Assembly (NCBI GenBank): GCA_050613775.1
Contig: JBODTK010000016.1
Span: 248,001 to 312,000 of the forward strand
Source: Neocallimastix sp. 'constans'
Taxonomy: Eukaryota
DNA: 64,000 nt
Direction of reading: 5' to 3'
Numbering within the stretch: the first letter of the stretch is position 1; each line of letters opens with the position of its first letter. The notes beneath the pieces are model-generated. The model did not search any database. It saw only the letters and a list, made by a program, of their open reading frames with translations, and was not told where the DNA came from. The translations under genes and the position numbers were made by a program. This document shows positions 26,078 through 41,137 of the stretch, in pieces.

Positions 26078-29016
26078 TTTTTTTTTAATAGCAGCATTAT
26101 TGCGAACTTTAACTTTTTTATTTATTCATTCATTAAATACATATATATTTTTTAAAAAGAAACACAAAATTAATAAAAAAACATCATTTATCCAATTGAA
26201 TATAAATTAATTTTTTAATTAGTGTATTGTGAAATTATAGTAATATTCAAAATGAAGTGTATAAATAAATTCAGAATAAAGTATATGTGCAAAGATCCTC
26301 ACCTCCTGATTACTTATTCCTGATTAAGGTTTGAATTGACTATCTGAAAGAAATTATGGTCTTCTCCTTCAGAGGCATTGGCCCTGCTGGACTGTCTTAC
26401 TGTATTTTCAGCGTTGACGCTCCTGGTTAGTTTGCGCTTATACCGTCGGAATAGCAACCCTTGTCGAGTACTAGCCAGAGGCAAAATTTCTGTAAGGAGA
26501 GCCGCAGATTGCACCAAGAATGGAGTTTTTGAATAATCACCAGAATTAATTTGGTTCTTAAGCAAAATATCCCATTCCTTTGTATAATTTAAATCAATAA
26601 TATTTGCATCTCTTTCACCAAGAAGGAAGTTATATAATCGGTACCATGCCACATATATATTTACACACTCTTGATTCAGAAAATTACTTAAATTAACACA
26701 ATTTTCACCAATTGAATTATTCACTACATTATTAGTAACAATATTATTATTTTCACTATCATTAATTCTACAATTATTATAATAATATTATTTCTATTGC
26801 TATTATTATTAATATTATATAATTCGTTACTACTATCAGAATCAGAACTTGATTCTATATTATTCATATCTGTGATAACATTTAGAAAACCAATGTTCCA
26901 ATCGAGGACTACTATTTTTTCTATAACAACAAGGGCATCTTTCTAGACAGTCTTCTTCAATCATTTTAGCAGCTTTGGCATCACGAGCATCGAATTTATA
27001 TCCGCATCTGGAAAGAAGTACCCATCGGAAACCAATGCTAAATTCAGGATACTTGAAGTTGAACTTTAGGTTGTCTCTAGTTTTCTACGAGCAGTTTATG
27101 ATAAGATGCAGAAGGATAATCAACAGAATAAGTACTTGATATTTTATTTAGTATACTTGAATTGATTAACGCATGATCAATATCTGATGAATATCTACCT
27201 CTAGTCTATGAAATAGATGAACCATTAATCGGAAGAATAAACCAATTATCAAGGTTACCGTTGGTTAATTTATCCTGTAAATCAGCGATGTTCATGTTAA
27301 TGTCCCCAAGAAGAATAGATAGATGATTAGTGTGATTCTGAAGCCATGTGAAAACTTCAGAGAATGCATATCGAACTTGTAATGAGTGTTTCTTAGTGGG
27401 AATATAGACAATACTTACAGAACACTAAGAGTAATTCCATAGAATATATGTTGTTAAAGAAACAAGATGGGTATAGGAATTATCTTCAAGTACTACTTGA
27501 CATGAGAAATGATACCCAAGATATAAACCTCTGCAACCTGGAGTAGTTGGATCCATTTCGTTTCTGGAAATATTTATAGTTTGGAAGTGTGGCTTTACAT
27601 GGATTTCTAGCATCATTGATACATTTACCTGTTTCCTGAAAACATAGAAATAATGGTTTAAAAATTGTGTAGAAGTACTCAATACTATCTCTTTTCACAA
27701 AATTTCATCCATTGGTATTCCAACTAAAACAAAAAGAAAACTTTCCTGTATTAGAATATTATATTGGATTTTAAGAATTAAGATTAGGAATATTGGGAGC
27801 ATTGAATTCATGATTGCCATTTATAACATTTACTAAATTATTTGAACTGAGATTTGCTGAGTTTGTATTATTGGATGTGTTATTAAATATTAAATTTTGT
27901 TTTAAATGCCAAAAAGTAACAACTTCTACGATATGAAATTTTAACTCCTGATATTGATTTTTCAAATACTTCTTCAAATTTTTCGTGGTTGAAATTTGGA
28001 GTGTATATTTTTATCCTGAAGAAACTATAATTAAATTTAGTAATTCTTTTTACTGACAAAATATTATCCTTGAATTTTTTTTTATTTAGAATGAATAAAT
28101 TCCTTCATTTTAGCATTGGTCTATATATGTATACCACGGATAAAAGTCAACCTTGTGTTGTCAATAGATGTTCCATAACAGCGAGAACCTCGGTGAAATA
28201 TCTTTTTCATAATGAACTAAAAAATATAAATTAAAAAAAAATGAAACAAATAGAAAACTAAAATACTAAAAGCTAAGAAATATAGATATAAATAAAAAAT
28301 ATAAAAAAAAATAAAATAAAAAAATTTAAATGAAAAAAAAAAATACTATGAAGTTTTTATCTTTGTGTAGTAATTGATAAAATTTAAATAAAATAAACAA
28401 CTTAAGAATTTCGTAGTAATGTATAATCACCTCTTTTCTATTTTTATTCTGTTATCTTTTGAGTTTCTGAAATTCTATTCGATATGTAAACTTTTGAATG
28501 ATAAAATAATTTTCTTTAACGTATTCATCAATAAACTGAGATGAAAATGTAAAAAATGTTTGTAGTGATAGACTATAAAAGGATTCTCATCCATTAAATA
28601 ATGTCTTAAACACAAGCTTTGGAGTGAATCAATATCCTACATTTCTATTTTACAATAGCTACATGAGAGTTTAAATAATACAATAGAAAAATACATATAC
28701 AAAATAATACTAAAGTAAAAAAATACAATAGATTCATTACAATGATAATATGTAGAAACTACATGATATTATTAATTATACAACTCCAATGTTACTACAT
28801 ATCCAGTTTAAAACAATATAAAACATCAAGTTCACTTTCTACAGTCTTCCTGTATTCCAAATTTCTCTCTTCGTACTAGAAGCCGCTTTAGAAAGGATAA
28901 CCATCGATTATCATCAGAATCACAGAAAGCTGTAATTAGTATACCTGATATAGGCTATTCCTTTTCCATCAACCCTCCATGGACCTGGAAAAACAGTCCA
29001 CATCATTGGGGACAGA
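26078..29016 (-). mobile_element. Internally deleted LINE (family E): 5' hairpin, 5' UTR, N-terminus, APE endonuclease, C-terminal Cys domain; RT missing
   Basis: ORF start ~28210 (MKKIFHRG..CYG, similar to family-A PFHRVFYCFG). Endonuclease motifs KRDSIEYF..LCFQETG, LGDINM and IDH, then a jump at ~27090 to FRWVLLSRCGYKFD..CPCC..EHWFSKC. Several stops and frameshifts. Boundaries approximate. Confidence 0.75.
28965..29016 (-). ncRNA. Kink-turn (box C/D-like) hairpin at the apparent 5' end of LINE family E
   Basis: Minus strand CUGUC-CCC-AAU-GAUG-UGGAC-(11 nt)-GUCCA-UGGA-GGG-UU-GAUGG: 3-nt bulge, tandem G.A/A.G, closing stems. Confidence 0.6.
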
Positions 29017-29129: not shown

Positions 29130-30773
29130 TTTTTTTTTTTTTAACTGTAGAAAATTTGTTTCATCTTTATTAATTAAATAGTTGATAAAATACATGTAAT
29201 AAAAAGAAAAAAAAAGATAAAAGAATAAACAAAAAAAAAACATAAAATAAAATAAAATAAAATAAAATAAAATAATAGTATAATGTATTCTAGTTTCATT
29301 TAATTAATATCTATAAGACTTCACAAGGGTATTATTATACTGTAGCATAATAATTAATTTTGATTTCACAATGTTAATCATAATTTTAAGATACTAAATT
29401 ATGATTTTCATTGGTTGCGCTAGCCCTGCTGGCCTGTCTTACTGTTTCTTCAGCATTGACGCTCTTGGTATTAGTAGTACGATTCGATTTGAACCTATTG
29501 AACAAAGACCATTGCTGGCCAATAGCAATAGGTATAATCGATTGGAGAAGTGCCGCAGTAACCACCAAGAATGGAGTATCAGAATAAGCACCTAATTTCA
29601 TCTGGCACTTAAATAGATCCTTCCATTCCCTTGTACTGTTATTAATACTTCGACTTCCAAGAAGGAAATTAAACACTTTTTCACACACACTAGAATCAAT
29701 ATACACATTATTTTCAATACTATTACTAACATTACTAAAAATACTATTACTAATATTACTATAACTATTATTACTATTACTATTATTACTATTACTATTA
29801 TTACTATTACTATTATTACTATTACTATTATTACTATTACTATTATTACTATTACTATTATTACTATTACTATTATTACTATTACTATTATTACTATTAC
29901 TATTATTACTATTACTATTATTACTAATACTATTATTACTATTACTATTATCATTATTACTATTAACTATATCATTTGTTAGGTTGCCACGGTAAAAAGC
30001 ATTATATAAAAATAAAATTTTATCATTAACTGTACTACGACTATGATTGAAAAAAGGACAATCAATTAACCAATGATTTATCCACCACAACATCTAGATT
30101 CGCCTAAAGGAATTCCAAGTTCTGAAAAATCATTAAAAATGTCATTAATAAAAAGATTGAAAAGAATTGGTGATAGTGGACAACCTTGTCTAACTCCTTT
30201 CATAATATTAAAAGATTCCGAATATTGATCATCAATTTTAACACTGGCTTTGGAAGTCAAATATAGATTTCTTATAAATTGATAACATTTACCTCTAATA
30301 CCTAAAGCATCTAATTTATATAAAATATTACTTATTGGAACAGAATCATATGCCTTTTTTAAATCTAGAAAAGCAAGGTAAGTTTCTTTATTATCATTTT
30401 TACGCCTTTGACAAATTTCTAGAATTGAAATAAATAAACTAACACATTCTTCTTTTGTACGAAATCCAAATTGCTCTGACCTAATAAAATTATTTTTAAG
30501 ACCATATTCAGAAATTCTTTTGGAGACTATTTTCGAAATGAGTTTAATACCATTGTTAATCAAAGAGATACCTCGATAACTGTCACAATCAGATAGATCA
30601 TCTCCTTTTTTAGGAATAGATATAATACTTGCTTCATTTCAAGAGCTAGGAAATTCTCCATTCCAAATTCTTGAGTATATCTTCTGTAAACAATTTAAAC
30701 CAGAAGAAGAATTATTTACTGAATTTTCGTTATCCGGAGGAATTAAAACTTTATAAAATTCAATAGGAATTCC
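29130..30773 (-). mobile_element. Deleted LINE (family C): partial RT, C-terminal domain, 3' UTR, poly(A)
   Basis: DGIPIEFYK, YRGISLIN, EQFGFR, FLDLKKAYDSV, KGVRQGCPLSPILFNLFIND; breaks at CCGG (30078) and joins HWLIDC. Poly(T) on + at 29130-29142. Confidence 0.85.
29760..29960 (-). repeat. 15-bp coding minisatellite encoding (NSNNS)n inside LINE family C
   Basis: Tandem ttactattattacta units; the ORF track shows NSNSNNSNSNNS repeats. Confidence 0.9.
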
Positions 30774-30970
30774 ATCCCCTCAGAAACCATACAGCTTCGG
30801 TTCCATCATTGGGGTCAGTAGGTAAATTAAAATCACCAACCAACATTGAAGGATGAGAAGAGTGACTATTTAACCACGACAAAATTTCAATTCTAGCAGC
30901 TCTAGCATGAAGGTTATGGCCACTACGAGGTACGTACGCATTACCAATAGAACATTTAGTGAAATTCCAA
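30774..30970 (-). repeat. ~197 bp direct repeat, left copy (family-D endonuclease piece plus K-turn hairpin); partner at 38106-38302
   Basis: Colinear with 38106-38302; the first ~95 nt are identical and there are ~7-8 substitutions in the remainder (by eye). Confidence 0.9.
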
Positions 30971-31148: not shown

Positions 31149-34100
31149 CTATGCGGGAATTTTTCCTTTCCTAACAAATAAAAAAGAAATAAAACCTAGA
31201 AGTAACATCTTTAAAATAGATAGTATGATGTCCACTAAACTCTCCCCGGATTCATCATTTATTGAACTACTAGGGCAAGATTCATCCTTCGTAGAAATAG
31301 ATGCTGATCCTGTATTATCATTATGCCTTATCAGTACGACGTCGACGCTCTTGGATAAGTTTGGTATTATGCAATACCTATCAAATAATAGCTCAAACGA
31401 ACTACTAATGATAGGTATTGCACTTGTTAAGAATTCCGCCAAGCCCACAATTTTTGGAACAGGTGACTCAGATGAACCTTTGAAAAGTAGTTCATTTAAT
31501 TGTCTCTGTTCCCCACTATCGAAATGTAGCTCATTTAAAACTAAAGTCCCACCAAGAAGGAACAAGTGTATATAATGATTGATATAATCTTCAAAATTAG
31601 AAATAGAGTCATAGGAAGAAAGAGGATTAAACGCTCTAATCTTCCTAAGGAATAAAACATAGAGGTCATCGATGAAATTTAAAGAATTCCATCTAAAAGA
31701 TGCAAGAGCATCGCATTTAAAAATCCAATGTTCAAAAGATTGTTTATCTTCGCCACAACAGGGGCAAAACTTGGGACAATCTTCCGAAACTCTACCCATT
31801 CTAATAGCAATAGTAGTATTGTATTTATAACCACAGCGTAAACGTATAATCCACGAAAACCCTAAGTTGAATTGGGGATATTTTAAGCTAAGCATAATTA
31901 TAGCTTTATTGTTTGAGAACTTATTACAATCGTAATTTTGACCTTTAATACCTTGAAATTTGGAAACTGATTTCCAGTAACGTTCTAAAATATCGTCATA
32001 TTTTTCACATTTATATTTTTTGATTTTTTATACAGTGTTCTAGATTCTTTAGTCCAGGAATAATGATGCATTTTGGGAATAGATTTAATAATATCCTTTA
32101 TAATACAGTTTGATTTACTCCATTTTGCAAATGATTTAATCTGTAATTCTGCGCAGACACCAGCAATAGGAGGAATGCTTAGATCTCGAGATAAAGCATA
32201 AGTACTCATAGTAGAATTATATCTAATATAGTCATTGTCTTCTGAACTTGTTTTACCATTTTTAGTGAATGAGCCGATACACCAAAATAGACCAGTATTA
32301 ATTAATGTTTGAATTCTGGCCGTTCTAGATTTGTTTGAACCAAGTAAAGGAGAATAAAAAATTACTTTACTAATAACAAAAGATTGAAGAACTTTTTTCT
32401 TGTATGCAATAGGGATAAGTTTATTTGAGAAGAAATGTGTAAATGAAAGAAGGGATTTTCTAACTTTAAAATGCATGTGAGATATAATGTGTTCTAGTAA
32501 GAGATCATCAGAAAAAGGAATACCAAGATAAATATAACTAGACACTTTAGGAATAGCATTCATTCCTAAATAGAAGGTTGGGTCACTATAGTTTGGAGGA
32601 GATTGGAAGTTCATTGGTTTTATAACCATAGTTGCACATTTTTCAATACCAAAAGTCATTTCATTTAAATTAGCCCATCTATGTACCTTTTTTAATAATT
32701 TTTCTAAATTTTTTGCACTTGGAGCAATGAGAACAACATCATCAGCAAAGAGTCCACCACAACATTTTTTTCTTCCAATATTAACACCATATTTTTCACA
32801 ATCATTTAATATATCATTGATGAATAAATTGAATAAGATCGGTGATAATAGACAACCTTGACGAACACCTCTTTTAATAGGAAATTCATTTGATAACATT
32901 GAAGCAAATCGAGCACGAGCTTTAGATGAAGTATATAAATTACATAGAAAATCAAAACATTTACCACGTACTCCATAATGATATAATTTAGTAAGAATGT
33001 TAAAAATAGGAACTGAATCATAAGCTTTTTTAAGATCTAAAAAGGCTAAATATGTGAATTTTCCTTGAAATTTTCTTCTTTGGCAAATTTCTCTAACGGA
33101 AATGAATAAATTAATGCATTCTTCACGGTTGCGAAAGCCAAATTGTTCAGGTCTAATGAAATTGTGTGAGAGTGCGTAAGTAGATATTCTATCTGTTATA
33201 ATTTTTGAAATGATTTTCAGTCCAACATTAATGAGAGAAATACCTCGATAATTACTACAATCTGATAGGTCACCTTTCTTAGGGATTGATACAATAGAAG
33301 CTGAGTTCCATTTTTTAGGAAAAGACCCATTCCATATTTTATTAAAAATCAATTTAAGACACTTTCCAGCAGCAGGATGTGTTTCTAGTAATTCTTCATT
33401 GCAAAACAGAGCTTTGTAGAATTCAATCGGGATACCATCGGGGCCGGGTGCTTTGTTGTTTTTCATAGATGAAATAGTTTTTTTAATATCGTCAATCGTA
33501 ATAGGATCGTTGATATTCCAAGTAGAGGATCTAAGACTAATATTCCTTAAAGCATGAATCCAGAAGTTACGATTAAGGCTGTGACCTGAGGGATCAGAAG
33601 CTAGATCTTTATAATATTCAGCCCATCTATCTAATTGTTTAGTAGGAGAGATAATATCTTGACCAAATTTAGATTTTATGCAAGTAGGGGAGGTAGATGA
33701 ATACGATGGTTTAGCCATTTTTTTTAAACATCTCCAACCATTTTTGAAATCTTTATTCAAAAAATAATTACCAATTTTTACTATATTAGCCTTAAATCTA
33801 GCAGAACGAAATTTGCTCTTTGTTTTCTTGATTAATTTGCAAAGTTTTTCATATTTATTAAATTGTTCAAGGTAATTATCAACATTTTCACAGTTAAAGT
33901 AAGGCTTAATATTTCGAAATGCAATATGTTTTTCATGAGACAGTTTTTTAATGTAATAAGGACAGTGAAAAGCAGATCCCTTTAAATTTGTTGGAATGAA
34001 AGCCTTAATATTCTTCCCGATATTATTTGCTGTATTGATAAATTTTTCTACCATTTCATCAGCCGTGAGCGAATTGTAATGAGAATCGAGGTCATTTGCT

Positions 34101-34996
34101 AAGATTGAAAAATAATTATGTGATAAAATATCTGAACTTTTTGTTTTACAAATATGTGTAGACCATTTAGAAACTTTAGCAGACCTTATAAAGCCATCGG
34201 AGAGAACTTTGTTGCAAGAAAGTATAATAGGTTTATGATCAGAAATACCATAAAATGAAGTGCAAACCGAGGTTTTATTAAAATGAGCTGCCAAAGCCTC
34301 ATTATATATGACATGGTCAATGCAAGATGATCTAGTACCTTTGGCATAAGTAAATTGATTACCATATAAGGGAGCAATATACCAATTAGGAAAATTATTT
34401 GAAATGTATGTTTTGATGTTCTTTAATGACATGTTAAAATCACCAACTAGGACAGCAGGAACGTTTTTTCTATTGTGAAAACGTAACCATTGAGAAAGTT
34501 CATCAAAAGCAGCTAGTCTTTCTTCCTTCCATTTGCTTTGAGGGAAGTAGATATTACCAATAGTACATTTTTGATTCCAGAAAGAAGTAATATTTACTGA
34601 AATGATATATTTGTATAAAAACCGTTCTTGAAAGAAAGAGCACGAAGAATGAACACCAATAAAGAGTCCTCTCATACCAGGGATTTTAGGATTAGCTCTA
34701 AGGAAAACTGAGTTGTAATATGGAATTAATGGTGATGAAACATCTTTTGGAAGATATTTACTTTTTCCAGTTTCTTGTAAACAGATACATATAGGTTTGA
34801 AAATAGAGTTGAGATATAAAATACTATCACGTTTTTCAGTATTCCAACCGTTAATACTCCAACTAACACAGAGATTAAAGAAAGAAGAATTTGAATTTAG
34901 ATGGCTAGAGAAAAAATCTTTCGCCATAGGATTAAGCTCAACATCAATGTTATTAGATTTTCTTGACTTGTTCATTTGTTTAAGTTTATTACACAA
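31149..34996 (-). CDS. LINE endonuclease/reverse transcriptase polyprotein with one frameshift at ~32010-32030
   Basis: SWSINGW, CLQETG, VGDFNM, IDH and SDH (APE); KAPGPDGIP, YRGISL, QFGFR, FLDLKKAYDSV, RGVRQG and LFADD (RT); CPCC..HWIFKC in the downstream frame. Confidence 0.92.
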
Positions 34997-35150
34997 GGTC
35001 CAGGTAATTTTAGCCGTTTCAGGAATTTTATCTCTTAAGAAATCTAAAACATCGAAAAATTTGAGATCATTTTTGTATTTATTAACCCTAATAATGAAGT
35101 ATGAGCCGTACCTTGGAGAAAAAAGTTTTTTAACATATGGAATAATTTCA

Positions 35151-37169
35151 TTTTTTTTTTTTTAGACTAGGAATAAACTTTATTTAATAATATTTTTTTT
35201 TTTAAAAAAATACATGAAGTTTAAATACATGAAATTTTTTTTTTTTTTTATATTAATATTAAAAAACTACGTTATGAGATTCGAGGACGAAATGGCCTCT
35301 AACTCTTCCCATTCATCGAAGATAACTCCATGTGGATGAAAATTATCATTCGAATCTGTATCAGAATTTCTTCTTTGCCTTATCGTTACGACGTCGACGC
35401 TCTTGACAACGGTAGGTCTAACACTATACAAATCGATCATGGTGTAAAAATCACCAATCACAATAGGCATAACGTTAGTAAGGAATTCCGCAAGCCCCAC
35501 AAAATATGAAATCGGGAAAGAAGACTCGTTCGAAGGTGATTGAAAAATATTATTAATAAATCGCCTTCTTTCCCCCGAGCCGATCTTTAAGATTTCAAAT
35601 ACTGCATTTCCGCCAAGAAGGAGACACAGCACGTAAAAATTGATATTATCATCAAAATCTTCCTCTTTATCATCAGGAATGTTCAATGATTTCTCATGAA
35701 CAATAAGAGAAAAATTAATAAAAATTTCATCAACAAAGGGAATGAAATGTTGCCTAAATTCTTCAAATTTAGGACATAAAAGTATCCAGTGTGTAAAACT
35801 AGGTATGCTGTTACTCTCACCACAACAAGGGCAGTATGTTGGGCAATTTTCTGATACTAGATTACTTTTAACATACGTTTTTACATCAAATTTGAATCCA
35901 CATTTAATTCGTCCAATCCAAAAAAAACCAAGAGAAAATTGTGAATATTTAAGTGATAGACGTTGAATAATTTTTTTAAAACCAAATTTAAATTTCTTGT
36001 ATTTTGTAGATCTGATCGCAGGAGTGCTTGAATAATGAATATTTTCCCAGTAAAACTTCCTTATTTCTCCAGGAAGTTTATTGTTGAGCTTGTGTACTGC
36101 TAAACTTCGTGCTTTTTTCGTCCAGAATAGTGAGAAAGTGTAGGTATATTTTTGACTAAATGAGAAATAATACAAGAAGAATCTTTCCACTTTTTAAAGC
36201 ATCGAATCATCGCCTTAGCACAAAAACTAGCTATAGGAGGTATAGAAAGTTCCTTAGACATATTGTAAATTGAAGTATTGGAGGTTTTATTTTTAAACCC
36301 GAAACTCCAATACAAACCTCGATTAAAAGCAGTTTGAACTTTTTCAGTATTCTTTTTATTTGAACCAAGTAAGGGAGCATAATAAAGAACTGAACTAAGG
36401 ACAAAAGAAACTAGTATACGAGTTTTAAAGTAGAAAGGAACATTCCTATTGGTTAAAAATCTAAAGAAAGAGTTAACTGTATAATTAATTTTACTATTCA
36501 TCTTAGCAATAATAGGTTTTAAATCCAACGATTCATTAAAAGGTGTACCAAGATATGTATATTGATTAGTGCTTGGTATATAGTTCATACCAAGTCTAAA
36601 AGTAGGATTTTCATAATGTCTTGAAGGTATAAAATTCTTTGGTTTAACAACTAGTGTAGCGCATTTATTGATTCCAAAGGTCATTTCATTTTTAATACCC
36701 AAATCATGAGCGATATTCAAAAGGTTTTTAAGTGAAGATTTTGTAGGAGCTAATAATACAATATCATCAGCAAATAATCCACCACAACACTTATTCTTTT
36801 CAGTAATCACACCATAACTTTTACATTTATCAAAAATATCATTGATAAATATATTGAATAAAATAGGTGAGAGAGGACACCCTTGGCGAACATCACGGTG
36901 TATTGGAAATTCTTTTGAAAGTTTACCATTAAAGTTTGCACGAGCTTTCGAGGTAAGGTATAGATTAGTAATGAATTGAAGGCATTTACCACGAATACCA
37001 AGATTATTTAGTTTAGTAAGTATATTGTAAATTGGAACTGAATCATAAGCTTTTTTAAGGTCAAGAAAGGCAAGAAAGGTAAATTTATCCTTAAATTTTC
37101 TTCTTTGACAAATTTCACGAATGGATACAAATAAACTAATACATCTTCTTTATTTCTAAAACCAAACTG
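35151..37169 (-). mobile_element. 5'-truncated, frameshifted LINE family B nested in family A
   Basis: Begins at QFGFRNKED; FLDLKKAYDSV, LFADD, CPCCGE..HWILLC, stop at 35267, then AATAAA...CTAGTCTA(A)n. Confidence 0.88.
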
Positions 37170-37404
37170 TTAGATGGCTAGAGAAAAAATCTTTCGCCAT
37201 AGGATTAAGTTCAACATCAATGTTATTAGATTTTCTTGACTTGTTCATTTGTTTAAGTTTATTACACAAGGTCCAGGTAATTTTAGCTGTTTCAGGAATT
37301 TTATCTCTTAAGAAATCTAAAACATCAACAAATTTGAGATCATTTTTGTGCTTATTGCCGTACCTTGGAGAAAAAAGTTTTTTGGCATATGGAATAATTT
37401 CATT
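37170..37404 (-). repeat. ~235 bp direct repeat of family-A N-terminal coding sequence; partner at 34897-35152
   Basis: Colinear with scattered substitutions; the left copy carries an extra in-frame 21 nt (aaccctaataatgaagtatga). Confidence 0.9.
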
Positions 37405-37875
37405 GTAGTTAGGGATCTTACTAATAACTTGAGCCATTAGATTGCTAGGGTACCAAGAATTAAGGTTATGGATAAAGATAAGGCTATAATTATTCATATG
37501 ATTACCGAAGCAGTAGAAGACACGATGGAAGGGAGTAGTATTAACTGAGCTGGAATCATCCATGTTTAGAGTTTGATGATAACAGAACTGACTTAATTTC
37601 TATTTATAGTGAATTGATTAAAAGGATTGTATACCAAAGAATTATATATAAAATATTAACATTTAAGTTTACTGAATATAAAAGTTAATTGTTTCACATG
37701 AATTGAATTTCCTAAGATATATTAAAAAACAATGTTAGTGGAAAAATTATTTATTCAATAAAATATAATGTAAAATAATAAATTTATTTAAAGTGAAAAT
37801 ATTTTAAAAGGATATGAAATTAAAAACCTAAAATAAAAATTTATATAGAGATATAAAGAAAAATATATAAAGATA

Positions 37876-37925
<50 letters not shown>

Positions 37926-38102
37926 AGAAAAATTTTAGAAATATAAGAGAAAAAATAAAAAAACAATATTGTTAGTAGTATAGTGTAAAAAATTCTTTTG
38001 ATTGAAAAATTGATTTAAAAAACTACAGTTATGATTTATATAAAAAATAAAGATTGCACTAAAAATTGAAAAGTAATTTAGATTTTATTATTATACTAAT
38101 TG

Positions 38103-38150
38103 CTGATCCCCTCAGAAACCATACAGCTTCGGTTCCATCATTGGGGTCAG
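38103..38150 (-). ncRNA. Kink-turn (box C/D-like) hairpin at the apparent 5' end of LINE family A
   Basis: Minus strand CUGA-CCCC-AAU-GAU-GGAACC-gaagcuguau-GGUUUC-UGA-GGGG-A-UCAG: near-consensus box C (AUGAUGG), perfect box D (CUGA), G.A/A.G/U.U/G-C core. A G.U pair works only on the minus strand. Confidence 0.7.
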
Positions 38151-38476
38151 TAGGTAAATTAAAATCACCAACCAACATTGAAGGATGAGAAGAGTGACTA
38201 TATAACCACGACAATATTTCATTTCTAGCAGCTCTAGCATGAAGGCTATGACCACTATGAGGTACGTACACATTACCAATAGAACATTTAGTGAAATTCC
38301 AAAAATTATAAGTATACAAGGAAATAATATACTCATAAGTGTTGTTTTCAAGAGAGGCTTGACAAGAATTATGAAAACCTATATAAAGTCCTCTTTTACC
38401 AGGAATTTCATTATTAGCTTTTTTGAACAAATGTTTATAGTTTTTTATTAGAAAAATATAAATCTTTTTAATAAAT

Positions 38477-38478: not shown

Positions 38479-38556
<78 letters not shown>

Positions 38557-38639
38557 GGCAGCAAACTTGTTTCATCTTTATTAATTAAATATTTGATAAA
38601 ATACATGTAATAAAATAATAATAAAAAAAAAAAGATAAA

Positions 38640-40479: not shown

Positions 40480-41137
40480 TTAGAAAAGGAAGTAAAGAGT
40501 AGAGCAAACGAGACCAACTAAACCGGTAATAGCAGTACGTGGGGAAGCAGCACTGACAGTAGCATTGGCAGTGTTGTTAACGGCGTTAGCAGTATTGTTA
40601 GCAGCAACGACAGTGTTGTTAGCAGCATTAACAGCGCTAGTAGCAGCAGCTCCAGCAGCTTCGGTGGCAGTGGCAGCAGCACCATTGGCAGCATTAGCGG
40701 CAGTATTAGCGGCATCAGTAGCAGTACCAGCAGCGGCACCAGCGGCAGCAGCAGCAGCACCAGAACCAGCACCTAAGAATTCAGTATCAATACAGTTGTT
40801 GTAACAGCTGATAGAACCATCACACTTACTAATACAAGATTCAACATTGTTAACTTGTTGAACAGTTGGAGCTGGAACATTGAAACAGTGAGCGATACAA
40901 ACAACATCATCACCACAGTTCTTGGACTTAACACATTCTATTTATATTTTATTAAGTTCAAAATTGTGATTTTATTAACATTTTAGAATTCATTAATAAC
41001 TTCATATTTTATTTTAATTTATTTTTATAGAATTTTATTTTTTCTTTTTATTTATTATTCTTTAATATACCTTCGGCGGTTTCGGCAGAAACAGCTAAAG
41101 CAGCAGCGGCAGCTAATAAAACGTAGTTGAATTTCAT
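40480..41137 (-). CDS. Small secreted, probably GPI-anchored 8-Cys protein with an Ala/Asn/Thr-rich stalk (174 aa, 2 exons)
   Basis: Exons 41071-41137 and 40480-40937 splice in frame: signal MKFNYVLLAAAAALAVSA, ECVKSKNCGDDVVCIAHCFNVPAPTVQQVNNVESCISKCDGSISCYNNCIDTEF, hydrophobic tail TAITGLVGLVCSTLYFLF. Not in the ORF track. Confidence 0.88.

What the first reader, a model, noticed from the sequence alone, without database searches (positions are those of the whole stretch)
38103..38150. LINE retrotransposons apparently headed by a box C/D-type kink-turn hairpin
Seen: ~540 nt upstream of the family-A start codon, exactly where the adjacent endonuclease fragment stops, the minus strand reads CUGACCCC-AAU-GAUGGAACC-10 nt-GGUUUCUGA-GGGGAUCAG. 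This folds into a canonical K-turn (C-stem, 3-nt bulge, G.A, A.G, U.U, G-C) and is a GC-rich island in very AT-rich DNA. The outer CUGA pairs with UCAG in the element's own UTR, which argues that it belongs to the element. Established: such K-turns bind L7Ae-family proteins (Snu13/15.5K) and protect snoRNA ends; R2 and some RTE elements define their 5' ends with HDV-like ribozymes. Inference: these LINEs may use a minimal snoRNA-like module as a 5' end protector or processing stop after read-through transcription, or for RNP assembly or localisation. I know of no description of this, but I could not search the literature.
Basis: partly seen in the sequence, partly recalled or inferred. Interest (0 to 1): 0.85.

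Follow-up and report, generated by a model that had tools for sequence, protein, structure and literature searches.

The report
Kink-turn caps on gut-fungus LINE retrotransposons

Summary
The K-turn hairpin is real (38146-38108, minus strand) and recurs at 30814 and, with a different stem, at 29011. Shuffles gave none. Public contigs show that repeat copies begin sharply at the C-stem, behind varied flanks. Related gut-fungus LINEs gave two more K-turn heads. Across four head types all 24 stem positions pair, with changes on both sides, against about half in cross-family swaps. Of 7 LINE families with enough upstream DNA, 3 carry K-turn heads (one link uncertain) and 4 a different C-run-led hairpin with a covarying kissing loop. 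Both types occur in both protein clades, and heads stack.

Only this family has a box D; the other three heads have 3n=G, the riboswitch-type K-turn predicted to fold without protein. No Rfam, HDV, twister or hammerhead match was found, and ten literature searches found no description.

Best reading (0.45): a swappable 5'-end module that stops 5'-3' exonucleases on read-through RNA, as in SPA lncRNAs or xrRNAs. Rivals are an internal promoter with a structured leader and an unknown ribozyme. No RNA end, binding or cleavage has been shown.

The parts
38108..38146 (-). K-turn head, type A (copy 1): C-stem 38146-43/38111-08, bulge 38142-40, G.A/A.G pairs, U.U, 7-bp NC stem, loop 38129-22; 5' tip of the family-A LINE
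   Evidence: boundary at 38145/38146 and no substitution rows inside
37564..38107 (-). AT-rich 5' UTR of family A, with a branch-point-like TACTAAC at 37977 and a TTTTAG|G at 37833
   Evidence: 85% identical to L179/L181, where it runs into an open APE-RT ORF
37156..37563 (-). N-terminal part of the family-A ORF (predicted ferredoxin-like, RRM/ACT-type domain), broken off and joined to an RT fragment of another family
35267..37149 (-). RT-to-3'-end portion of another LINE family, followed by a poly(A) signal and tail (35184-35151)
38147..38460 (-). Endonuclease fragment of a different LINE family (best match P0020), ending at the head; includes the 'outer CUGA'
38479..38582 (-). Poly(A) signal and A tail of an upstream LINE 3' end, 436 nt before head copy 1
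31149..35152 (-). 5'-truncated family-A LINE without a head (APE + RT ORF 35161-31985, then 3' part)
30776..30814 (-). K-turn head, type A (copy 2), identical to copy 1, with the same upstream junction; joined directly to an RT fragment (deletion or switch derivative)
30081..30775 (-). RT fragment (best match P0020, from the DGIPIEFY motif on) behind head copy 2
28973..29011 (-). K-turn head, type C (copy 3): different stem sequence, U.G at 3b.3n; sharp repeat boundary at 29010-29012
28508..28972 (-). Body of module C (structured first ~230 nt, fold z -2.8), 88% identical to the UTR of the unrelated LINE family in L153/L165
29013..29125 (-). Short LINE ORF fragment (EN-RT linker region) between an A tail and head C
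27131..28210 (-). Decayed LINE ORF (N-terminal domain and endonuclease) starting 801 nt after the start of head C

Best explanation
The hairpin is the conserved 5'-terminal RNA module of a single-ORF APE-RT LINE family of anaerobic gut fungi, and it likely defines the element RNA's 5' end by stopping 5'-to-3' exonucleases on read-through transcripts. Shown: copies start at the base of the C-stem; K-turn geometry is kept while the stem sequence turns over; sister families carry an alternative C-run-led kissing-loop head at the same place; heads stack and are shared between families. Inferred steps: (1) Pol II reads into the element from an upstream gene or LINE; (2) cleavage at the upstream poly(A) signal leaves an uncapped RNA; (3) Rat1/Xrn1 trims it until it meets the folded head, which would be held by Snu13 in family A (U.U, CUGA) or by Mg2+ and a loop-to-downstream pseudoknot in the 3n=G heads; (4) the trimmed, polyadenylated RNA is the template for target-primed reverse transcription, so full copies begin at the C-stem; (5) template switches onto other LINE RNA pieces would give the stacked and swapped heads.
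For: Boundary: contigs leave the window at 38145 (X4 3 contigs, flank agreement 0.6; X15 1) and at 29010-29012 (X1 7, X4 12+10, X16 1+2; agreement 0.51-0.62 where several) (loose-end tables cut by 78 and 533 rows). L153/L165 and L174/L175 diverge right before the C-run. Conservation: 0 substitution rows in 38108-38146 against 25 rows in 37964-38107. Covariation: 24 of 24 NC positions pair in four head types against a mean of 3.1 of 6 in 12 cross-family swaps. Enrichment: 5 sense and 0 antisense K-turns in 10 upstream regions against a shuffle mean of 0.005-0.01. Geometry: all three window heads lie 160-436 nt after a LINE poly(A) signal on the same strand; L179/181 lie behind an S26e gene on the same strand. 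RNA-library contigs run across the boundary into the flank. Precedent: XRN2 trims to a snoRNP in SPA lncRNAs (PMC12084880, passage). The boundary lies 4-6 nt before the box-C-like AUGA, as for trimmed C/D snoRNA ends (spacing rule recalled, not from a call).
Against: No RNA 5' end was seen: only contigs were available, and contigs in RNA libraries may be DNA carry-over. A promoter or a ribozyme would give the same sharp boundary. Exonucleases usually leave several unpaired bases before a block (recalled), whereas only 0-2 conserved ones precede the stem. Four of 7 families lack a K-turn. The loop-to-downstream pairing in K-turn heads is weak: own-sequence shuffle p 0.03-0.12, and the cognate pair was best in only 2 of 4. 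Nearness to poly(A) signals is expected in any nest that inserts into A tails. Head E in L167 is followed about 65 nt later by an A run and may belong to a separate short insertion. How an uncapped RNA yields protein is unexplained.
Confidence: 0.45

Rival explanations
1. The element has an internal Pol II promoter that starts at the C-run. The K-turn or kissing-loop head is a structured leader used for RNP assembly, nuclear or nucleolar routing, control of splicing or translation, or 5' joining during integration.
For: Internal promoters give precise 5' ends in many non-LTR elements (PMC3774820, passage). Swappable, stackable 5' modules recall mammalian L1 promoter replacement (recalled). A branch-point-like TACTAAY lies in 8 of 11 UTRs, and 15.5K-bound K-loop RNAs suppress splicing of their host intron (bioRxiv 10.64898/2026.08.03.742641, abstract). 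The ORF has a predicted RRM/ACT-type N-terminal domain.
Against: The conserved unit starts with C, and no extra G appears at the junctions inspected. Primary sequence is not conserved between families beyond the C-run and GAGG; pairing is.
Confidence: 0.27
2. The heads are an undescribed self-cleaving ribozyme, or two related ones, that cut just 5' of the C-run. The K-turn is an architectural bend that positions the loop for a pseudoknot, as in riboswitches.
For: HDV-like and twister ribozymes do this job in R2, R4, L1, RTE and Perere-3 elements. Three of 4 K-turn heads have 3n=G, which allows folding in Mg2+ alone, as in riboswitch K-turns (PMC4382518, Results). Type-II heads have a covarying loop-loop contact and a purine-rich GGA-like stretch after the first stem. 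Everything conserved lies downstream of the boundary.
Against: No invariant candidate catalytic nucleotides are shared by both types. Family A has only about 45 nt of conserved structure. No match to Rfam ribozymes or to my HDV, hammerhead and twister descriptors at the boundary.
Confidence: 0.18
3. The heads are host small RNAs (a C/D snoRNA or a U4 5' stem-loop piece) copied onto LINE 5' ends by template switching and carried as passengers.
For: snRNA-headed chimeras and SINEU elements exist (PMC4494074, passages). Family A matches box C and D closely, and junctions here are often chimeric.
Against: There are four different stems in four modules. The head is more conserved than the UTR behind it. 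There is no room for an unpaired guide, no Rfam snoRNA or U4 match, and 3b.3n is never the G-C or G-U typical of U4.
Confidence: 0.07
4. The hairpin acts in DNA, as the terminal hairpin of a Helitron-like element on the plus strand or as a recombination hot spot.
For: It is a GC-rich hairpin at a repeat terminus in AT-rich DNA, and many junctions fall at or in it.
Against: The G.U and tandem G.A pairs exist only on the LINE sense strand (5 sense, 0 antisense). The plus-strand end is not CTRR. The head is co-oriented with APE-RT ORFs.
Confidence: 0.03

Closest known systems
5' ribozymes of non-LTR retrotransposons (HDV-like in R2, R4, L1Tc, RTE; twister T-variants in Perere-3)
   Same: A structured RNA at the exact 5' boundary of a LINE, upstream of an APE-RT ORF, plausibly releasing it from a co-transcript (PMC3774820, PMC8501958; passages read).
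   Different: No HDV, twister or hammerhead fold was found at the boundary. The module is a K-turn hairpin or a kissing-loop pair, and cleavage is not shown.
SPA lncRNAs (5' snoRNA-capped, polyadenylated)
   Same: A K-turn-bearing 5' end downstream of a poly(A) signal; XRN2 trims up to the RNP (PMC12084880, one passage).
   Different: Here it is a 39-nt hairpin rather than a full snoRNA, on a mobile element in fungi. Three of 4 heads lack box D.
Box C/D snoRNA terminal motif and U4 5' stem-loop
   Same: Standard K-turn with a C-G closing pair, a purine-led 3-nt bulge and tandem G.A/A.G pairs; family A has AUGAUG/CUGA with U.U and G-C.
   Different: No guide region, no C'/D', no Rfam match; the 3b.3n pair is mostly 3n=G.
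Plant-virus and flavivirus xrRNAs (recalled, not tested)
   Same: A compact stem-loop with a possible pseudoknot at an RNA 5' end.
   Different: No sequence match; a K-turn as the bend; resistance not tested.
SINEU and snRNA-LINE chimeras
   Same: A small-RNA-like head on a retroelement, with stacked, 3'-truncated head extensions (PMC4494074, passages).
   Different: The heads here match no known host RNA, sit on autonomous LINEs and covary between families.
klRNAs/ktRNAs (intronic 15.5K-bound compact C/D RNAs)
   Same: Compact orphan C/D-motif RNAs near splice signals (bioRxiv 10.64898/2026.08.03.742641; abstract and passages).
   Different: Mammalian introns; klRNAs lack a C-stem; the passages seen report no link to LINE 5' ends.

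Membership tests
Standard K-turn | C-stem, 3-nt bulge, tandem G.A and A.G pairs, NC stem | tested here: met
   7 of 7 tabulated heads (4 types; window copy 2, identical to copy 1, not tabulated); NC pairs 24 of 24
Standard K-turn | Kinked fold and L7Ae/Snu13 binding | not testable with these tools
   needs FRET or gel shift
Box C/D snoRNA | [quoted passage not shown] | tested here: inconclusive
   Family A has box C at 6 of 7 and a perfect box D; types C, D and E lack CUGA
Box C/D snoRNA | Unpaired guide before box D, internal C'/D', known family | tested here: not met
   39-nt hairpin with the region before box D paired; no Rfam hit at the heads; no rRNA was at hand to test complementarity
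U4 snRNA 5' stem-loop | 3b.3n G-C or G-U, within the U4 scaffold | tested here: not met
   3b.3n is U.U, U.G or A.G (rule); no U4 hit
HDV-like LINE ribozyme | Nested double pseudoknot beginning at the boundary, with a catalytic C in J4/2 | tested here: not met
   A loose descriptor on 9 heads hit 4, with P1 in variable flank or starting inside the head, and none in the other 5; Rfam none
Twister / hammerhead | Twister P4/T2 core; hammerhead CUGANGA...GAAA core | tested here: not met
   0 of 9 heads; Rfam none
SPA-type 5' end / xrRNA | Uncapped RNA end at the structure; stops Xrn1/XRN2 | not testable with these tools
   only contigs were available
APE-type non-LTR retrotransposon | APE and RT in one ORF, poly(A) 3' end | tested here: met
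   Pfam RVT_1 in 7 of 7 locus ORFs and endonuclease in 6 of 7; window ORF; tails
RTE clade | Placement in an RT tree with named reference clades | not tested
   No named clade references were at hand; named relatives include Orpsp1_1 models and Batrachochytrium, Ectocarpus and Trachipleistophora proteins at 34-43%

The most novel reading that the evidence does not exclude
LINEs of anaerobic gut fungi define their RNA 5' end with an undescribed family of interchangeable RNA devices: a K-turn-bent pseudoknot and a kissing-loop pair built on the same C-run/GAGG stem. These act as a new class of exonuclease-resistant RNA or a new self-cleaving ribozyme, and are swapped and stacked between lineages by template jumping.
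Probability: 0.35. Interest if true: 0.9.

Novelty: new variant of a known kind. Interest (0 to 1): 0.72.

Why it matters
How non-site-specific LINEs make a defined RNA 5' end is only partly known; promoters and HDV or twister ribozymes are the described solutions. A K-turn or kissing-loop head would be a third solution and, as far as these searches reach, the first K-turn tied to a retrotransposon. It supplies short, natural, covarying RNAs (39-110 nt) that can be tested at once for Xrn1 resistance, Snu13 binding and self-cleavage. Any positive result gives either a new xrRNA or ribozyme class or a compact 5' stabiliser for retroelement-based gene writing.

Tried and rejected
No genome is held for the window, so no genome-wide count or target-site-duplication analysis was possible; junctions fall in A runs. 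Rfam found 0 hits in the window at E<=5, 2 weak unrelated hits in L153 1-1000 and 6 weak hits, none at a head, in six loci. Pattern scans of viral contigs (32 and 120 stretches) gave no LINE-linked hit among 151 loci; the protein scan gave 0 of 56. In genome contigs 1 of 13 loci had a 5' end, and the four host MAGs held only that head. Of 17 metagenome loci, 8 had only 80-383 nt upstream and were left out of the head count. The N-terminal query covered only one of the two subgroups, so the RGSRCYG subgroup was not sampled. The count of structure pairs on the MAFFT alignment A3 gave no support (33% paired, 498 of 500 shuffles as high). That alignment is out of register because the hairpins differ in length, so I relied on the structure-anchored count, in which positions 4-7 were preselected by the descriptor and only 8-9 were free (8 of 8 paired). 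The loop-to-downstream pseudoknot in K-turn heads is only suggestive. For type II, the cognate kissing pair was strictly best in 2 of 5, tied in 1, within 0.1 kcal/mol of the best in 1 and beaten in 1. No L7Ae-like match was listed for the LINE N-terminal domain; top rows were ferredoxin-like (the wide search was busy), which is inconclusive for exclusion. The tblastn step printed nothing and was replaced by Pfam. Contig depth (module C about 10 times the ORF at 28210) is not a copy number, and may reflect other families sharing module C or a stand-alone short element. Template jumping is not proven: copy 2 (endonuclease and RT pieces of one family on either side of the head) also fits a nested insertion followed by deletion. 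Rejected: SECIS (stem too short, wrong position; recalled criteria) and the hairpin as part of the endonuclease frame. Earlier findings: three look-ups returned nothing.

Full report
Setting. The window is 18% GC and its LINE proteins match Orpsp1_1 gene models and gut metagenome proteins, so it comes from an anaerobic gut fungus (Neocallimastigomycota; inference). No whole genome is held. From about 25.8 to 39.7 kb lies a nest of LINE pieces, all on the minus strand and separated by poly(A) signals and tails. The elements have one ORF of about 1,350-1,400 aa: an N-terminal domain, APE endonuclease, RT and a C-terminal CPCC motif. The N-terminal 100 aa are predicted as a beta-alpha-beta-beta-alpha-beta fold (mean pLDDT 75.7) whose best matches are ferredoxin-like ACT/RRM-type domains.

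Observation. The 48 nt are as written. A generic K-turn descriptor found three hits in the window: 38146-38108, an identical copy at 30814-30776 inside a duplicated segment, and a different one at 29011-28973. Forty shuffles gave none. Rfam had no match.

Where the element begins. Contigs of four public runs were laid on 37930-38470. Native copies of the upstream endonuclease family continue in frame past 38147 (8, 1, 1 and 1 contigs), as in P0020, so the outer CUGA is endonuclease coding sequence. Contigs carrying hairpin and UTR leave the window at 38145 with differing flanks (X4 3 contigs, agreement 0.6; X15 1; another X15 record ends at 38146). No substitution row falls in 38108-38146, against 25 rows in 37964-38107; one X19 contig departs inside the hairpin at 38120. 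For copy 3 the boundary is 29010-29012 in 7 (X1), 22 (X4) and 3 (X16) contigs with unlike flanks, and X1 and X4 each hold one contig with a head-to-tail repeat of the first 122 nt. The loose-end tables were cut (78 and 533 rows hidden). All are contigs, so they cannot show RNA ends.

Other families. A protein scan of genome contigs gave 13 loci, one of which (L153, a fungal contig binned into a bacterial MAG) has 1 kb upstream of the ATG. An N-terminal alignment scanned on metagenome contigs gave 17 loci, 9 with more than 600 nt upstream. These 10 loci represent 7 families, 41-73% identical in protein. L153 and L165 begin with a new K-turn head (type D) and have module C, 88% identical to window 29010-28508, stacked 190 nt behind it; their flanks differ right before the C-run. 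L167 has a fourth head (type E), followed by an A run, so its link to the ORF is uncertain. L179 and L181 are family A cut inside the hairpin, with the UTR (85% identical to the window) running into an open APE-RT ORF. In the 10 upstream regions the descriptor found 5 sense and 0 antisense K-turns, against 0.005 and 0.01 per set in 200 dinucleotide and 200 block shuffles.

Covariation. Anchored on the G.A pairs, all four types keep C-G at -1, a purine-A-(U/A) bulge and G at 4b. Positions 4-9 pair in 24 of 24 cells, with G-C, A-U, C-G and U-A exchanges, against a mean of 3.1 of 6 in 12 cross-family swaps. Positions 4-7 were required by the descriptor. The tool count on a MAFFT alignment gave no support, but that alignment is out of register. 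The 3b.3n pair is U.U in A, U.G in C and D, and A.G in E and in the L153 form of C. By the rule of PMC4382518 (Results read), 3n=G K-turns fold in Mg2+ alone, as in riboswitches, whereas archaeal box C/D and U4 K-turns need protein. Only family A has CUGA.

A second head type. L166, L172, L173 and L174/L175, and a truncated copy stacked in front in L165, begin with a C-run hairpin paired without a K-turn. A second hairpin follows, whose 6-nt loop is complementary to the first loop, and the pairing letters change together (CCGUAU/AUACGG, CCGUA/UACGG, GUACU/AGUAC, CUAGG/CCUAG, GUAUCAC/GUGGUAC). L174 and L175 diverge just before the C-run. The two head types are interspersed on the protein tree, each present on both sides of a 100/100 split (9 rows, two as outgroup), so heads have been swapped or re-evolved. 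Neither type matched Rfam or HDV, hammerhead and twister descriptors at the boundary. A loop-to-downstream pseudoknot can be drawn for each K-turn head, but support is weak (p 0.03-0.12).

Mechanism. What is shown is position, conservation and structure. I infer a 5'-end-defining module. The exonuclease-block model fits three things: the boundary 4-6 nt before the box-C-like motif (spacing rule recalled); the position 160-436 nt after upstream poly(A) signals, or behind an S26e gene in L179; and RNA-library contigs that cross the boundary. It parallels SPA lncRNAs (PMC12084880, one passage) and snoRNA trimming by Rat1/Xrn1 (PMC10557570, passages). An internal promoter or an unknown ribozyme predicts the same DNA pattern, so I give 0.45, 0.27 and 0.18. 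LINE-derived pieces lie directly upstream of the head at both window junctions, in L165 and in L179, but not in 6 other locus flanks. This and the stacking fit template jumping (discussed for SINEU in PMC4494074, passages), but copy 2 also fits nested insertion plus deletion.

Literature. Ten full-text searches combined kink-turn, kink turn or K-turn with retrotransposon, non-LTR, Snu13, L7Ae or xrRNA, and gut-fungus names with LINE or ribozyme. I saw no description of a K-turn at a LINE 5' end in the listings. I read passages of PMC5579392, PMC8501958, PMC3774820 and the klRNA preprint (abstract and passages); for PMC5689011 only the search listing. No supplements were read, and subscription journals and Repbase are outside the library, so prior annotation there cannot be excluded.

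Verdict. The feature is real, lineage-wide and under structural selection. It is a new variant of a known kind (structured LINE 5' ends), with a fair chance of being a new RNA device. Interest 0.72.

Noticed in passing
L174:74-150, L175:107-183, L172:152-222, L173:152-215, L166:47-160, L165:49-140: A second LINE head type: C-run hairpin plus a second hairpin with a covarying kissing loop, no Rfam match. It deserves its own follow-up as a candidate ribozyme or xrRNA. L165 and L172 also share a third hairpin with a GCGCAA loop.
   Followed up: partly
window 37977-37971 and 37833; UTRs of L153, L166, L170, L172, L173, L174: Branch-point-like TACTAAY in 8 of 11 LINE UTRs on the sense strand (2 antisense; shuffle mean 2.8, 0 of 300 as high; motif chosen after seeing the data). 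The AG acceptor motif tested was not enriched (4 of 11; 66 of 300 shuffles).
   Followed up: partly
window 28508-29011; L153:270-771; L165:391-893: Module C is shared at 88% by unrelated LINE families and has much higher contig depth than the ORF behind it; it may also exist as a stand-alone short element.
   Followed up: partly
L167:45-177 and L167:495-790: Head E is followed by about 65 nt and an A run, like a 130-nt K-turn-headed mini-element; the UTR then holds a GC-rich tandem repeat, and the ORF has a low-complexity repeat insert.
   Followed up: no
window 37563-37240; L153:995-1324: The N-terminal domain of the single LINE ORF has no Pfam match but is predicted to be ferredoxin-like (RRM/ACT-type), as if an ORF1-type RNA-binding domain were fused to the APE-RT.
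   Followed up: partly
L152-L155: Fungal LINE contigs are binned into rumen bacterial and archaeal MAGs of GTDB (contamination).
   Followed up: no
L174:1-57: The contig start looks like sequencing-adapter sequence (recognised from memory).
   Followed up: no
L001:1501-1535: A viral contig holds a similar K-turn-like hairpin, with no LINE nearby.
   Followed up: no
window 40480-41136 (minus): An intron-containing gene for a small secreted-looking Ala/Asn/Thr-rich protein lies just upstream of the LINE nest on the same strand; a possible source of read-through.
   Followed up: no
window 57216-57271, 56861-56932: Short matches to LINE 3' ends outside the main nest.
   Followed up: no
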